Shown piece after piece: positions 3,001 to 9,000 of a stretch of 64,000 nucleotides of DNA (positions within the stretch are counted from its first letter, which is position 1; every line of letters starts with the position of its first letter). Source of the DNA: Thalia democratica. Lineage: Eukaryota. The stretch is from positions 44,082,001-44,146,000 of the forward strand of contig OZ241831.1 of the NCBI GenBank assembly GCA_965202585.1. Reading direction: 5' to 3'. Position numbers: made by a program.

Positions 3001-6000
3001 GCAGCGACTCTCTCTCCTTGCCCATCTCGTTCTTCTCACTAGACGTGTGTTGAACTTTGTTAGTAATGTGTATTTAAAGTTTTAACATGCTTATGATTTA
3101 AAAACTCTTCTTTTAGCTTCTAATGAGGATTTTTTTTTTGTATATTTGCCAACATAAACAGCTTATTTTCAAGTACCAGTAATTAAGCTTAGTTTATATA
3201 TAAGTATATAAATATCGAAAATTTATTTTAATGGTCAGTAACAACTGATGTACATCCAAACACAAACTCACCTTCCAACGACTTCTGCCGACGACTTGTA
3301 CCTGTAAGCGTCCCTCTTGGCGTCCTCCTTCGCTCTGGTGGTCGTGTCCAGGTCCTCTCTGATGGACAGGAGCTGCTTCTCCAGCATGTGCTTGCTGTGG
3401 TCCGCATCAGCCACCTGCTTCTTCAGCGCCGCGTTCGAATCCTTGGCCGCGTCCAATTTGGCTCGAAGCTCCTGATTTTTGGTTTAAAGTTAATTACTTA
3501 CTGCAAAGGTCAGAGTTGTTGTCGGTAAAAGTTTTTTGTTAATACTTTTGCAGTTAGTTTCAAAAGAGTTTTTTTTTGTGAATCTGTCGTGTTTTGAAAC
3601 GTCTTGTTTTTGACGAGATATTTACTTTCTTAATTGTAATGATAAACTTTATCAGTTTTGTTATGCAGGTTACCCACTTTTAATTAAGTTTTATGTGGTA
3701 GGTATTTTTTCATGTTTTTTGGAACATCAAGTGTTTTAATTTAATCAAAAAAAAAAATTGCAGAGTGGTTCTTTGCTTTTACATTTTTGTAATATATGTA
3801 AACCAGAACTGTTAACGTGATTGTTATGAAGATTTTCAAGAGAGCTATATACGTTATAAGAGGCACTTAACATAAGTGAAAACAGTTAAAAATATTTGCA
3901 AAACCAAAAAATTCTTTTTTGAATATTTTGTAGTGGTAAAATGTAAACAAACTTTACGAAACTGTACATAAAAACCAGTTCGAACATTAATTTGAAGCTT
4001 TTTGGGTTTATACCAATGAATAGTCTTACTAAAACCGATATTCGTTTAGGAATTTATTAAAAAGGTGCTTTACTTCATGAATATTAAACGCCTAAATGTT
4101 TTAGAAACACTACAACTATGTAATTTCAAACTGCAAAAAAATAAATGCATACAAATGCAAATGCCTAATAAACCGCCAACAACCAATAGTTTAATAATCT
4201 GTAAAGTAATCATTTCTTGAGTAGTCGTACTTTATAAGTTGTTCTAATTGCACAAACAGAAGCTGTTTTTGATTACATCATTCAATTCGGCAACAACACA
4301 TAATACATCATTAAAGTCAGTTAAATGTTGTTTTATTCAATTAATAATACAAATTCTTCTAAGGCATGGTAGTATACACCAACCTGAACTTGCAGCTGTC
4401 TCTTCTGCAATGCGGCCTGCACCGCGTGGTACGTCGAATCTGCGAACGACGGGGAAACTCCTCTCGCTGCCGGGGATCTCCCTCTTCTCGGTGACCTTCT
4501 ACCGCCTGGTGACGGCGACCTTATCGGGGAATACCCACGACTGTAAGAATGAGTTTTAATTTAGATTTTAAAATAACATGTTATTAAACTTTTTTTTTAG
4601 TAGTAAAAGTATCAAGCTTTTCAAAAATGAATGATACTAAATAAAAAATAGTAATTGTCCTTCAGATCAATAAAAATAACTTTAAGTACATAAAATTTAC
4701 CTCTAAGTAAAACAACTGATATAGTCTTCATGAATCTAAAAAAAATTCTGTTAAAACCATATGAATATTATAGTATGTAAAAACATTACTACAGTTTCTT
4801 AAAGCATACCATGAACAAAATGCATTAAATTAAAAAAAACTCGATAAAAGACACTATACTCTAACAAAGTAAACCTTTCGTTTATGCAAGCTTCCTTCAA
4901 GCTCGCTTTAGCCAGCGCCTTCGCGTCACTCTTACTCTTATCCAGTTCCCTTTCCAGGCTGCTGAAATCGCACCTGCTTTTACTCCGGTGCTTCACCAAT
5001 AAATCCCTCAGCGCCGGATGCCAGTCTTTCAAGTCTTTGGTCGACGAGTTGAGCCTGCTGTCCCTGATCAGCTTCTCGCTCGCCTCTATCATGCTCTGCA
5101 CGCTACTAATGCTCCCGATCATCTCCTTCTTGTTCTTGAACGAGTTGTTGAACACCGACTCGGTTTCAACTTGCCTCTGCTCCCTCACTTTACGCTCGTT
5201 TATGTCTATCAGCCTCTGCACGCTCGTGCTCCTGCTTCTGATCCTGGTCGCCGGTTTCGCTTCCACGGCGCTGGCAGAAGCCTGGTTGGCGGAGCTGTCG
5301 TCTTCGAACGACGAGTTGCCGACGAAGCTGTCGTTTCTGACTTCCATCGACTTCCGGGCTCGCTGCAACATCGGCGACCCGAAGCCGCTGTCGTCACAGT
5401 TCTCACCCCTGCCGGGCTCCTCCGAGAACGCCTCGACCAGCGAAATTTTCCTGCCCTGCCGCTGGACGCTGCGCTTCTTCGGCGTCGGCTTCGGCGTGCT
5501 GCCGTGAACCTTGTTGGTTCTGTACGACATGACAACAAAGCTCGAAACAAAAAACTTTCTTTTCAAATAAAACTTTAAAATTTAGTCTCAACAACTTTTT
5601 CTGCGAACAAATTCGGTCTAAAACTAAACTTTGAAGCTAAATAAACGCAAATACTACTGTGAAGGTATCGCACTGCCAGCTCAACTGAAATTAAACTAAG
5701 TGAAAGTGATTTGCAACCGAACGACAAATTACCCAATGTCAAGTGCACGCCGAAAAAGCTCTTCAGCTCAAACGAGCTTGCAATTGTCAAAAGAAAAGGC
5801 ACAAAAAGCAGAAAGGCTGAGAGCAATTTGTTTTCGCGTTCTGTGGCTGGCTGCCACAGAAGAGAGGGAAATTCGTCGAGGGCCCTTGAAAATTTTCTGC
5901 ACAAAACAGATTTCGCCCGGACTGTTGAGAGGTGCTCTTGTGTGAGGGGCAGAAAATAAGTAACAGTGGCAGAAAATAGCTGGTGTGCAGCCACTTTGGG

Positions 6001-9000
6001 TTATTTTATTTTTCTGCTTCAAGTTCAACGCTCCCTTTTTACGTTGCTACGTGAACTGGTCGAAACGTATACTAATTTTAGTAACATAGTTATTTACATA
6101 TTTTTTTAAAAGGCAAACAAATCTAACGATTCTAATAAGACTGCTACTCGTAAAGCAAACTATTTCTGTAAAAAAAAAAAAACTCTTTTTGCACAATAAG
6201 CTAGTAAATAAAATTTTTATACTGTCACTAAAAATGAATAAATAAAAATTCGATTGTTTTTTTAATATTTTCGATACTTTTGTTAAATACAACTAATAAT
6301 ATAAAAAACATCCTAGATTGTTTTTTTAAATTCTTGCTTTATAACTTTAACCTTGTAAGTGAACTCAACTTAATTCAAACTTAAAATAATACAAAAACAA
6401 ATGACAAAGATGAAATAAGTCTAACAAAGCTGTAGAGTTCAATGCTGTAACCATTTAAAAGTACTAAAAAAACTAAATTTCATCTATGTATTAAACTAGA
6501 CAAATGTTTTTTGTCTTACATAAATAAAAAAATCATCAACACTAACGTGGGAGACACGCTGAGCCCCATGTCGTTCATGCTCTCGCTCAGCTCAGTGACG
6601 GCACTTGCGGGTTTCATCTGATCGTCGCTGAGCGCCATGGCCAGGTCCGCGTCCGCTATGACCGACTGCGCGATGTCCCTGAGCGCCTGCTCGATCATCG
6701 CCTTGTCGTCCCTCAGCTTGGCCATCGTCTCCACGTCCTCTTCCTCCTCTTCCACCCGGGTAGATTCCTGTGCGTTGGTTGTGACAATAAAAAAACGAAT
6801 GAACAAAAAGGTCAGTTCAAACAAGTTCTTATTCAAATGGCACATTTTCCATTAAATAATATTTTTTAACTTTTGTAATGTTACGTGTTGTTTATTGCTT
6901 GTTGAAACTTTTTGCTGCATCAGCTTTTGGATCAAGAAGATTTATGGTCAATTTAAGCAAGGGCTTTCTGAAGTGGGCGATATTACCCTTATGGTGGAGG
7001 TATTGACTATTAAAGGCGTTAACAACTAGTACGGGGTGAAAAATTAAAAGGGTATTTCAATAGCAAAGGAGCCAATATTTTTGTATCTTTTGCAAAAAAA
7101 GAACATAAAAATGATTTTGTGAAACTCTTCTGTGAGCGAGTAATTATTTGTACGCTGGTTATAAACTGAATCCGTAAATTTCTCAACGTAAACACTTACT
7201 TGCGGAATGGACAGGTTGAGTTGGTTGATGGTGCAGTCTTTTTCGTCGTTCTGTTTCTGAAGTCTCTCTGTGGCGACAGTCAGTTCGTTGATCTTGGCGT
7301 TCAGCGCTGCTTTCTCCGTATCGAAATCAGATTGCATCTGTAGCATTTCTTTCACCTGTTTAATATACAAGATTTAATAGATTGTGAAATTTATTACATT
7401 TTTTTAAACAATTGTTTTCATAAGTTAAAACGTAACTTTTAAACACGTTTCATATTTGATGATATTGTGCTATTTACAACAATGAAAAAAAAAGGAAGTC
7501 TGTCTAAATACTTTTCCAAATACAAAATAGAGCTTTTGTACCAAAGTCAAACGTCTTGTAATTAAACTTCGAAAATTTAAATACACATAAGACAAAAAAA
7601 TAATATGTAAAATTACTTTAAATCTTCTACTACCCCTTTTTTTTATTTACACTTAAAAAAAAACACGCCTTTTCTCTCAGCTGATCTTCGACTCCGCTCT
7701 TCTCTCCTCTTTCTTTCTCAAGAGAGACTTTAGCGGACGAGTCCTGAACATTCTGATTGGCTCCGAGGTTCAAGCAGGCGGCGTGAAGTTGACGGGCACC
7801 TCTCTGTGTAAATACACAATTGTAACACAGACATATATCTAACTGTTTGTATGGTATACGAAAAGAAGAATGCGCTTATTTGAACCTTTTGGATGAAAAT
7901 ATAAAAACATATGCTGTAGCGAAGTTTAAAAGCACAATCTTCTTACTACTTTTTAACAATTTAAAAGACTATCAATGTTATCTAAGTTAGATATATTGCA
8001 TTTTGTATACATTAGATTGGTGGCGTATTTAGAGTAAAGGTAGGCATGGTAAGCAACTAAATACAAGTAGTAAATTGCAAAATCCCACCTGGACATCATT
8101 GATAGCTTCGTTCAGGTTGGTCTGAGTGCTGGACTTGAGATCGGTGAATCCCCTTCTGATCTGCACCACTGCCCTCCACAATGCCAGCAATCTGCTGTGC
8201 TCGTCACCAAAGTACGTGCTAAAGTTCTATGAAAGAAGTTATATAAATTTAAAACTTCAAATGTGTCTGTCCTACTATGTTCTTATACAATAAATAGGGA
8301 CAGTAAGTTATACAGTTTTTAGTTAGATCAAACAGAACTATTTTCTAAATAATGTTTACGCCTACTATAAATCTGTACACGAAAACGAACTAAATTTTAT
8401 GGTTTCTGGCTACTTTAAGTAAAATTGTTCAACTTACCACGTGAGTTTAGTAAAAAACATTTTTTGTCAGGAAAAAAATTTAAACAAAATTATTTTGAGT
8501 TAACCGAAACTACTTTTGTAGACTAAAATTTTATATTTATTATTATTACGTCATACAAAATCCTCACCTCTTGTTCTTCCTTCCACTGCTGCTCCGTCGT
8601 CTTCAGTTTCTCCTGAACGTCTTCGAAGTCCTGCTGGCACTTTTGCAGGTCGTCGGTCACTTTCTTCATGTCCTCACTCATCTTCTCGTTGCCCTCGTTC
8701 GCCGCTTGCAGTTGTTCGCGCAACATCGCGTTCACCTCCGCAAGACTTTCGGCTCTGAAGAAAAAAAATACAGTTTGTCTACTGTTAGGTACTTTGAAAC
8801 CTTAAACACCATTTGAATTGTGGAAACGGATCACAAATGCACGGAGCGTCACTTTTGCATTAAATTGTTTCAATTAATTTAGTAATTTAAAACTTTTTAT
8901 GTTTGAAATGTTGTTTTTAAATAAATAAATACTTTCGTACGAACCATAACTGTATATATATTTTATTATATTAAACTTGGAAATAAGTTTCGGTTATTGC

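What the first reader, a model, noticed from the sequence alone, without database searches (positions are those of the whole stretch)
4875..6060. Hidden 218-228-codon exon that could give rootletin an alternative head
Seen: exon 6547-6767 splices in frame directly to 4384-4540, yet the intron holds a stop-free GC-rich ORF (ATG 5530) ending in a phase-2 donor that also fits exon 4384-4540. Two weak acceptors (5541-5542, 5559-5560) give symmetric 666/684-nt cassette options, and a CpG-rich block (5620-6060) lies just upstream. The peptide is Ser/Arg-rich, low complexity and ends in a short amphipathic helix; from memory it has no counterpart at this position in human CROCC. Inference: either an alternative first exon (an isoform lacking the whole N-terminal head and Rootletin domain but keeping the polymerising coiled-coil tail) or a large lineage-specific cassette.
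Basis: partly seen in the sequence, partly recalled or inferred. Interest (0 to 1): 0.68.

Follow-up and report, generated by a model that had tools for sequence, protein, structure and literature searches.

The report
Probable alternative first exon of rootletin
An intron of an insect-type rootletin gene holds a convincing 218-codon coding exon with its own start codon, which most likely gives an isoform that swaps the whole N-terminal head for a new Ser/Arg/Lys-rich segment; this is a plausible but unproven gene-model variant, not a new kind of system.

Summary
On the minus strand, ATG 5530 opens a stop-free frame. Its coding signal ends exactly at a donor (AAG|GTTTAC, last exon base 4875). 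That donor is in the same phase as the end of exon 6547-6767, so both fit exon 4384-4540.

The ORF looks like real coding sequence:
- GC3 is 0.80, against 0.22 GC in the flanking introns.
- The codon score is 1.27 bits/codon, inside the 0.39-2.09 range of the 17 canonical exons. It is the best of six frames, and 0 of 64 decoy ORFs reach it.
- It is the top-scoring coding segment of the window.

The host gene is rootletin: Pfam PF15035 is split over four exons.

The two cassette acceptors are poor (GAG, AAG). The upstream 530 nt are non-coding, richer in GC and free of ATG, and carry a motif cluster. I therefore favour an alternative first exon from an internal promoter (about 0.6).

No transcript or cross-species evidence could be obtained. 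The peptide matches nothing known. AlphaFold predicts a disordered first 100 residues, then a confident helix at 102-161.

The parts
4875..5530 (-). Coding part of the hidden exon: ATG 5530, 218 codons plus 2 nt (AG), completed by T4540 to Ser.
   Evidence: Searches give the sequence. GC is 0.564 and GC3 is 0.80. The codon score is 1.27 bits/codon and even over thirds (1.29, 1.41, 1.10), and 0 of 64 decoys reach it. It is the highest-scoring coding segment of the window at 279 bits.
4873..4874 (-). Donor GT of the hidden exon (AAG|GTTTAC).
   Evidence: The PWM score is 5.1. The 14 real donors of the gene score -1.6 to 13.4 on leave-one-out, and 14 of 283 decoy GT sites score as high. T at +3 is found in 8 of the 14 real donors. 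GC falls from 0.564 to 0.216 here.
4972..4973 (-). Internal in-phase alternative donor (CAG|GTGCGA, last exon base 4974). It would shorten the exon by 99 nt (33 codons).
   Evidence: The PWM score is 12.4 and the phase matches the 4875 donor. The 32 codons after it still have GC3 0.62, so the exon probably runs on to 4875.
4541..4872 (-). Rest of the 334-nt intron (4874-4541) between the hidden exon and exon E10.
   Evidence: GC is 0.216 with 1 CpG. The acceptor is CATTCTTACAG|T at 4541.
4384..4540 (-). Shared downstream exon E10 (Ser/Arg/Pro-rich linker, then QKRQLQVQ).
   Evidence: The acceptor and donor are part of the consistent gene model.
5531..6060 (-). Non-coding block upstream of the ATG: putative 5' leader and promoter.
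   Evidence: GC is 0.431 for 6060-5620 against 0.222 in the intron upstream. The codon score is negative in all three minus-strand frames. There is no minus-strand ATG, against 3.9 expected, and 9 of 1000 shuffles also had none. The block is unique in the window.
5597..6017 (.). Cluster of five GCAGAAAA sites in both orientations (5597-5604 -, 5893-5900 -, 5949-5956 +, 5969-5976 +, 6010-6017 -).
   Evidence: These are 5 of the 6 copies in the 64-kb window. Only two loci of the window have at least 4 copies of a G/C-containing 8-mer within 431 bp. The motif was picked by eye.
5541..5542 (-). Candidate cassette acceptor (TTTTTTGTTTCGAG|C), giving a 666-nt exon.
   Evidence: The PWM score is -12.5, and 242 of 255 decoy AG sites score as high or higher. 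G at -3 is seen in 0 of 15 real acceptors.
5559..5560 (-). Candidate cassette acceptor (TTTGAAAAG|A), giving a 684-nt exon.
   Evidence: The PWM score is -0.8, and 84 of 255 decoy AG sites score as high or higher.
6547..6767 (-). Canonical exon E9, the last exon of the head. It splices in frame to E10.
   Evidence: The donor is CAC|GTTAGT and the acceptor is CGCACAG|G.
7200..28290 (-). Canonical head exons that the hidden-exon isoform would skip: E1 28290-28018 (ATG), E2 21499-21365, E3 16884-16768, E4 11739-11612, E5 8754-8568, E6 about 8218-8089, E7 7803 to about 7669, E8 7355-7200.
   Evidence: Pfam Rootletin PF15035 matches E3 (profile 1-24) and E4, E5 and E6 (profile 37-84, 84-143 and 140-185). 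The E5/E6 and E7/E8 junctions are ambiguous.

Best explanation
The stretch 4875-5530 (minus strand) is a real protein-coding exon of the rootletin gene, used as an alternative first coding exon.

Proposed mechanism:
1. Transcription starts at an internal promoter in the intron between E9 and E10, somewhere in or just upstream of the GC-richer block 5531-6060. (Inferred.)
2. The first AUG of that leader is 5530. (Shown: there is no upstream minus-strand ATG for 556 nt.)
3. Translation runs 218 codons to the donor after 4875, possibly also using the in-phase donor after 4974. (Frame and donor shown; use inferred.)
4. The exon is spliced across a 334-nt intron to E10 (4540) in frame. (Phase shown; splicing inferred.)

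The product would lack the whole head, about 490-500 codons in E1-E9, including the Pfam Rootletin domain. It would keep the Ser/Arg-rich linker and the coiled-coil rod.

Its new N-terminus would be basic and probably disordered over residues 1-100. A confident helix follows at residues 102-161 and contains two copies of an 18-residue motif.

Published head-less constructs suggest how such an isoform would behave. Mouse R234 forms robust filaments that are not anchored at the MTOC. Fly RootDEL reaches basal bodies and joins existing rootlets but cannot build them alone. By analogy, this isoform should still dimerise and co-polymerise through the rod, but without the head's targeting and kinesin-light-chain functions. 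That would make it a modulator or non-anchored form. (Inference by analogy only.)
For: Host gene: PF15035 matches at 40.4 and 49.0 bits (cut-off 36) on the E5 and E6 ORFs, with weaker in-order matches on E3 and E4. The 17-exon model is phase-consistent except at two junctions.

Coding:
- GC3 is 0.80.
- 1.275 bits/codon is the best of six frames.
- The score is above 8 of the 17 canonical exons on leave-one-out, and 0 of 64 decoys reach it.
- It is the top-scoring segment of the window, and that segment ends at 5533 and 4874.
- 4 of 1000 shuffles give as long an ORF.
- An in-frame 120-nt-spaced internal repeat is present.

Splicing:
- The donor scores 5.1, within the real range, with 14 of 283 decoys as high.
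- Composition steps down sharply at 4875.
- The phase equals that of E9.

First exon rather than cassette:
- Both acceptors are poor.
- The 5' block is non-coding, richer in GC than the intron and unique in the window.
- The minus-strand ATG-free run 5531-6086 is the third longest of 1623 inter-ATG gaps in the window.
- 5 of the 6 GCAGAAAA sites in the window cluster there.

Precedent:
- 5'RACE found internal promoters giving N-truncated C-Nap1 in cattle (PMC4423223, passages).
- Fly Root has several 5' ends (PMC4621839, passages).
- Human rootletin has predicted variants that differ near the N-terminus (PMC8636639, passages).
Against: - There is no transcript, CAGE or proteomic evidence, and no cross-species comparison.
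- The peptide has no match in Pfam (0 families at E up to 1), in the PDB (0 at E up to 10) or in the ESM Atlas. Conservation is therefore unknown.
- Phase agreement with E10 has a 1-in-3 chance.
- The donor is mediocre: it ranks below 10 of the 14 real donors.
- Core-promoter evidence is weak: one strict Inr (TCAGTT, A at 5686), no DPE and no TATA match.
- No X-box meets even the loosest consensus in 5531-6546.
- The ATG depletion is not strand-specific. The plus strand has only 1 ATG in the block and a 497-nt ATG-free run.
- The GCAGAAAA motif was chosen after looking at the sequence.
- In Drosophila the three Root mRNAs encode one and the same protein, so such an isoform is not general to insects.
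- The block could instead be an intronic enhancer. Fly Root has one in its first intron (PMC4489026, passages).
Confidence: 0.6

Rival explanations
1. Cassette exon: the stretch is included between E9 and E10 through the acceptor before 5540 or 5558. This would add 222 or 228 residues between the head and the Ser/Arg linker, and ATG 5530 would be only an internal Met.
For: Both acceptors leave the frame open, and both exon lengths (666 and 684 nt) are multiples of 3. The 5541 site has a T-rich tract.
Against: The -3 base is G (0 of 15 real acceptors) or A (1 of 15). The scores are -12.5 and -0.8, and 242 and 84 of 255 decoy AG sites score as high or higher. With equal donor phases, any in-frame AG within the 17 open codons upstream would look 'symmetric', so the symmetry carries little weight. 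The coding signal begins only at 5533.
Confidence: 0.12
2. Independent nested gene, or an unspliced transcript: ATG 5530 is read through the donor to the stop at 4801-4799 (244 codons), with no link to rootletin.
For: The frame stays open 25 codons past 4875. The peptide shows no similarity to any of the 17 rootletin exon peptides. The best E-value is 0.05 in a 17-sequence database with composition correction off.
Against: The read-through tail lies in sequence of 0.216 GC, and the best-scoring coding segment stops at 4874. That is the signature of an exon-intron boundary. The exon is on the same strand as rootletin, uses the same codon pattern and is in phase with the next exon.
Confidence: 0.1
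3. No longer (or never) functional: a decaying former exon, or a chance ORF in a GC-rich island, next to an intronic enhancer (block 5620-6060).
For: There is no known homologue. Two antisense frames are also long (219 and 191 codons). Fly Root has an intronic enhancer.
Against: GC3 of 0.80 with frame-specific codon bias is even across all thirds. 4 of 1000 shuffles give as long an ORF. The long antisense ORFs are Leu/Ser-rich, as expected opposite a GC3-rich coding frame, and they score lower (0.872 and 0.156 bits/codon).
Confidence: 0.08

Closest known systems
Drosophila Root (CG6129) mRNAs RE, RD and RF
   Same: It is the same gene family and has several alternative 5' ends (PMC4621839, passages seen).
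   Different: [quoted passage not shown] Here the alternative 5' exon carries its own ATG and 218 new codons, and would drop the head.
Engineered head-less rootletins: mouse R234 and fly RootDEL
   Same: Both lack the N-terminal head and Rootletin domain and keep the rod. R234 still forms robust filaments that do not radiate from the MTOC (PMC2173070, passages). RootDEL reaches basal bodies and joins existing rootlets, but cannot assemble rootlets or rescue the mutant (PMC4621839, passages).
   Different: Those are laboratory deletions. The isoform proposed here would be natural and would carry a replacement N-terminus with a predicted 60-residue helix.
N-truncated C-Nap1 from internal promoters of cattle CEP250
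   Same: CEP250 is the paralogue of rootletin. 5'RACE found mRNAs starting inside the gene and predicted to give N-truncated protein (PMC4423223, passages).
   Different: Those transcripts were seen in a mutant background and use in-frame ATGs of ordinary exons, not a dedicated coding first exon.
Predicted human rootletin variants X1-X7
   Same: These variants differ near the N-terminus (PMC8636639, passages).
   Different: The differences described are small sequence differences within the head, not replacement of the whole head. No sequence comparison was made here.

Membership tests
Rootletin/CROCC family (host gene) | Pfam Rootletin domain (PF15035) near the N-terminus | tested here: met
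   Searched exon by exon. E5 ORF: 40.4 bits, profile 84-143. E6 ORF: 49.0 bits, profile 140-185 (cut-off 36). E4 ORF: 19.6 bits, profile 37-84. E3: 20.7 bits, profile 1-24. The exons are colinear with the profile.
Rootletin/CROCC family (host gene) | Long coiled-coil rod after the head | tested here: inconclusive
   E11-E16 give only generic coiled-coil Pfam matches. The window ends inside the rod, and no coiled-coil predictor was run.
Rootletin/CROCC family (the hidden peptide itself) | Similarity of the 218-aa peptide to any part of rootletin | tested here: not met
   0 Pfam families at E up to 1. The best BLASTP E-value against the 17 exon peptides is 0.05.
Alternative first exon with internal promoter | Start codon at the 5' edge of the coding signal, with no upstream AUG in the leader | tested here: met
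   The best-scoring segment begins at 5533. There are 0 minus-strand ATGs in 6086-5531. Caveat: the plus strand is also ATG-poor there.
Alternative first exon with internal promoter | Donor in phase with the shared downstream exon | tested here: met
   656 nt is 218 codons plus 2 nt, and E10 starts with a third codon base. The donor scores 5.1, within the real range.
Alternative first exon with internal promoter | Recognisable core promoter or transcription start | tested here: inconclusive
   There is one strict Inr (A at 5686) and no DPE or TATA match. TCAGTY occurs once per about 1600 nt of strand in the window.
Alternative first exon with internal promoter | Transcripts that start here and join 4875 to 4540 | not testable with these tools
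   No RNA data or animal genome or transcript collection was available.
Cassette exon | Usable 3' splice site upstream of the exon | tested here: not met
   The scores are -12.5 and -0.8, against -9.7 to 10.9 for the 15 real acceptors. The -3 base is G or A. The PWM is small, so this is indicative only.
RFX (X-box) ciliary promoter | X-box (RYYNYY N1-3 RRNRAC, or a stricter form) upstream of the ATG | tested here: not met
   There is no match in 5531-6546. The near-palindrome at 6056-6043 misses the loosest consensus by one base. That consensus matches 124 times in the window, so it has little weight anyway (consensus from PMC2375033, passages).

The most novel reading that the evidence does not exclude
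This lineage makes a natural, separately regulated head-less rootletin. An internal promoter marked by a GCAGAAAA site cluster drives it. Its dedicated N-terminal module has a basic, NLS-like disordered 100 residues, then a 60-residue helix built from a duplicated 18-residue motif. That module replaces the Rootletin domain, giving rod filaments that co-assemble with or compete against full-length rootletin. This would tune rootlet or centriole-linker assembly in particular cell types.
Probability: 0.2. Interest if true: 0.55.

Novelty: new variant of a known kind. Interest (0 to 1): 0.3.

Why it matters
If the exon is used, the gene encodes at least two proteins with different N-termini. N-terminal antibodies, N-terminal nonsense alleles and head-directed knock-downs would all miss the rod-only form.

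It would also be a natural counterpart of the R234 and RootDEL constructs. That would make the role of the rootletin head directly testable by isoform-specific disruption.

Otherwise it is an ordinary gene-model refinement. The species' own annotation may already list it, and I could not check that.

Tried and rejected
- Pfam search of the peptide gave 0 families at E up to 1.
- PDB sequence search gave 0 hits at E up to 10.
- ESM Atlas, with the whole peptide and with residues 95-218, gave no usable hit.
- X-box/RFX scan gave nothing upstream of the ATG. The consensus is too loose to mean much, with 124 hits in the window.
- Core-promoter motifs gave one Inr and no DPE or TATA match. The first output row is faulty because of an indexing slip and was ignored.
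- The sigma-70/terminator scan found 2 sites against 2.5 expected. It is a bacterial model and is irrelevant here.
- Rfam and tRNA scans of the window gave 0 matches.
- Paralogy of the peptide to the other exons, and repeat or transposon origin of the ORF or the block, found no significant match in the window.
- Literature searches for published rootletin isoforms found nothing on an insect head-less isoform. The library misses most subscription journals.
- Fold search was not run. The model has pTM 0.24 and is essentially isolated helices.
- The genome-contig scan was not used, because it holds only bacteria and archaea.
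Full report
Setting. The window has no N and is very AT-rich. Two-kb bins run at 0.22-0.35 GC, except 4001-6000 at 0.42. Short GC-rich islands turn out to be exons. This is an invertebrate, insect-like pattern, and I do not take the contig for human.

The host gene. On the minus strand I built a 17-exon model from stop-free, GC3-rich segments and their AG/GT boundaries:
- E1 28290-28018 (starts with ATG)
- E2 21499-21365
- E3 16884-16768
- E4 11739-11612
- E5 8754-8568
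- E6 about 8218-8089
- E7 7803 to about 7669
- E8 7355-7200
- E9 6767-6547
- E10 4540-4384
- E11 3471-3272
- E12 3038-2856
- E13 2538-2394
- E14 2283-2137
- E15 1175-945
- E16 691-498
- E17 85 to the window edge

Phases agree at every junction except E5/E6 and E7/E8, which stay ambiguous. Each exon was searched on its own.

Pfam's Rootletin domain PF15035 is laid out colinearly over four exons:
- E3, profile 1-24, 20.7 bits
- E4, profile 37-84, 19.6 bits
- E5, profile 84-143, 40.4 bits
- E6, profile 140-185, 49.0 bits

The curated cut-off is 36 bits. The gene is therefore a rootletin, and the finding lies in its E9-E10 intron (6546-4541, 2006 nt).

The observation.
- The ATG is at 5530-5528.
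- The frame is open from 5581 to 4799 (260 codons).
- The exon ends at 4875 before GT 4874-4873.
- Its 656 nt make 218 codons plus AG, and E10 supplies the third base (T4540).
- E9 likewise ends with two bases (AC), so both exons fit E10.
- AG dinucleotides at 5542-5541 and 5560-5559 would give in-frame exons of 666 and 684 nt.

Is it coding?
- GC is 0.564, against 0.222 and 0.216 in the flanking intron parts.
- GC by codon position is 0.45/0.44/0.80, against 0.58/0.36/0.72 for the canonical exons.
- I trained a codon log-odds model on the canonical exons, with the gene's introns as background. The other five frames give -0.461 to 0.872.
- Leave-one-out values for the 17 canonical exons run from 0.39 to 2.09. 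The hidden ORF's 1.27 is above 8 of them and is even across its thirds (1.29, 1.41, 1.10).
- 0 of 64 decoy ORFs of at least 60 codons elsewhere in the window reach it. The best decoy scores 0.87, at 59.2 kb, and may itself be an exon of another gene.
- The ORF is the highest-scoring coding segment of the whole window (279 bits; the next is 173). That segment runs from 5533 to 4874, almost exactly from the ATG to the donor.
- 4 of 1000 dinucleotide shuffles of 5581-4799 gave any stop-free run of at least 218 codons.
- Two long antisense ORFs (219 and 191 codons) are Leu/Ser-rich and score lower. This is what is expected opposite a GC3-rich coding frame.

Splice sites. I built small PWMs from the gene's own 14 confident donors and 15 confident acceptors.
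- The donor AAG|GTTTAC scores 5.1. Real donors score -1.6 to 13.4 on leave-one-out, and this one ranks above 4 of the 14. 14 of 283 decoy GT sites in a long intron score as high.
- T at +3 looks odd against the textbook consensus but occurs in 8 of the 14 real donors of this gene.
- A stronger donor in the same phase lies inside the ORF (CAG|GTGCGA after 4974, score 12.4). The 32 codons beyond it keep GC3 at 0.62. I read 4875 as the main end, with 4974 as a possible alternative.
- The two cassette acceptors are poor. The one before 5540 has G at -3 (0 of 15 real acceptors) and scores -12.5, with 242 of 255 decoy AG sites as high or higher. The one before 5558 has A at -3 (1 of 15) and scores -0.8, with 84 of 255 as high or higher.
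- Because the E9 donor and the hidden donor share a phase, any in-frame AG in the 17 open codons before the ATG gives a 'symmetric' exon. The symmetry itself is weak evidence.

The upstream block.
- 6060-5620 has GC 0.431 and 16 CpG, but CpG observed/expected is 0.79. It is richer in GC than its flanks, not CpG-enriched for its composition.
- Its codon score is negative in all three minus-strand frames, and it has no other copy in the window.
- There is no minus-strand ATG between 6086 and 5531. For 6060-5531, 3.9 are expected and 9 of 1000 shuffles also had none.
- This 556-nt run is the third longest of the 1623 inter-ATG gaps on both strands of the window. That is what a leader whose first AUG is 5530 should look like.
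- The depletion is not strand-specific, however. The plus strand has one ATG in the block and a 497-nt ATG-free run.
- Five of the six GCAGAAAA sites of the whole window lie at 5597-6017, in both orientations. Only two loci of the window hold at least 4 copies of any G/C-containing 8-mer within 431 bp. I picked this motif by eye, so it is suggestive only. I can name no factor for it.
- Core-promoter motifs are weak: one strict Inr (TCAGTT, A at 5686) and no DPE or TATA match.
- No X-box meets even the loosest published consensus in 5531-6546. A near-palindrome at 6056-6043 misses by one base, and the loose consensus hits 124 times in the window (consensus from PMC2375033, passages).

The peptide.
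- It has 218 residues, with S 35, R 21, K 21 and E 18, and a pI of 9.7. The first 60 residues carry a net charge of about +6.6.
- Residues 102-119 and 142-159 (TSVQRLIDINERKVREQR and SSVQSMIEASEKLIRDSR) repeat an 18-residue motif 40 residues apart. The alignment scores 41, and 0 of 500 shuffles reach it. The DNA shows a 20-nt repeat 120 nt apart at 90% identity.
- AlphaFold2, run without an alignment, gives mean pLDDT 64.3 and pTM 0.24. Residues 1-100 are at about 50, with one short low-confidence helix. A long helix at 102-161 has block means of 88-96 over residues 101-150. Weaker helices follow at 172-182, 189-198 and 204-216, at 53-69.
- There is no match in Pfam, the PDB or the ESM Atlas, and none to the gene's own exons.

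Interpretation. The best reading is an alternative first coding exon served by an internal promoter.
- Shown: a strong frame-specific coding signal bounded by an ATG and a donor; the phase fit to E10; poor acceptors; and a non-coding, AUG-free, compositionally distinct block upstream.
- Inferred: that transcription starts there, that the donor is used, and what the product does.

The isoform would lose E1-E9, about 490-500 codons, including all four Rootletin-domain exons. It would keep the linker and the rod. Published work frames the likely behaviour:
- Mouse R234, which has the rod without the head, still forms robust filaments that do not radiate from the MTOC. The head binds kinesin light chain 3 (PMC2173070, passages).
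- Fly RootDEL, which lacks the first 333 residues, reaches basal bodies and joins existing rootlets, but cannot assemble rootlets or rescue the mutant (PMC4621839, passages).

By analogy only, a natural head-less form would co-assemble with or compete against the full-length protein.

[quoted passage not shown] Internal promoters do have a precedent in the paralogue CEP250 (PMC4423223, passages). Predicted human variants differ near the N-terminus (PMC8636639, passages). Fly Root also has an enhancer in its first intron (PMC4489026, passages), so the block could be an enhancer rather than a promoter.

What stayed unchecked.
- No transcripts were available.
- The species' own annotation was not seen.
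- Supplementary files of the cited papers were closed. They may hold isoform tables or alignments, for example those of PMC4621839 and PMC8636639.

Four literature searches found no description of an insect head-less rootletin isoform. The library lacks most subscription journals, so this is weak evidence of absence.

Verdict. 'Alternative first exon' is favoured over 'cassette', at roughly 0.6 against 0.12. The rest is split between a nested or unspliced gene and a non-functional relic. It is a variant of a well-known mechanism in a known gene family, and of moderate-to-low interest until transcripts are seen.

Noticed in passing
window 9440-9740 and 13540-13900: Two further GC-rich, non-coding blocks lie inside rootletin introns (E4-E5 and E3-E4). 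They hold all three TGACGTCA (CRE) palindromes of the window, at 9556-9563, 9611-9618 and 13828-13835. 0.33 are expected, and 0 of 100 shuffles reach 3. Each also has a CCAAT/ATTGG box. They look like promoters or enhancers. E4 begins with ATG right at its acceptor (11739), so the gene may have several internal start regions.
   Followed up: partly
window 32830-53960: A unit of about 3.6 kb (32830-36438) recurs at 41024-44606 (94.8% identity) and at 49328 to about 53960 (79-92%). Each unit holds an inverted pair of arms with a CUB-domain exon-like ORF. The ORFs lie at 33195-33440 (-), 36192-36437 (+), 41439-41570 (-), 44409-44540 (+), 49698-49943 (-) and 53376-53630 (+). Pfam CUB matches 36192-36437 at E 5.9e-8. 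This may be segmental duplication or an assembly artefact.
   Followed up: partly
window 7630-7700 and 8560-8226: Two canonical junctions are ambiguous. E7/E8 has only phase-0 choices: AAG|GCGTGT (a GC donor, after 7669) or AGT|GTAAAT 18 nt further on. At E5/E6, the strong donor GAG|GTGAGG (phase 0) has no matching phase-0 CAG or TAG acceptor in E6, whereas TT|GTATGA (phase 2) fits TTTAG|C.
   Followed up: partly
gene-wide, minus strand: 8 of 14 confident donors of this gene have T at +3 (GTTAGT, GTTGGT, GTTTGT and similar). 13 of 15 acceptors are CAG, often ACAG. This is an unusual donor profile and may be typical of the taxon.
   Followed up: no
window 28291-28310: The canonical ATG (28290) sits 17 nt after an acceptor-like TTTTTCCAG|, and the 510 nt upstream (28800-28291) are only 0.218 GC. 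The canonical 5'UTR probably lies on separate upstream exon(s), as in fly Root.
   Followed up: no
window 59235-59522: A GC-rich island holds exon-like ORFs on both strands. The minus-strand ORF 59277-59522 has GC3 0.83 and is hydrophobic. Nothing reaches a Pfam cut-off. It is probably an exon of a neighbouring gene.
   Followed up: no
window 14170-14550 and 46150-46570: Short, related GC-richer segments give similar ORF fragments (for example ...RGRQP...GPIF.EK...) at two distant places. This may be a dispersed repeat.
   Followed up: no
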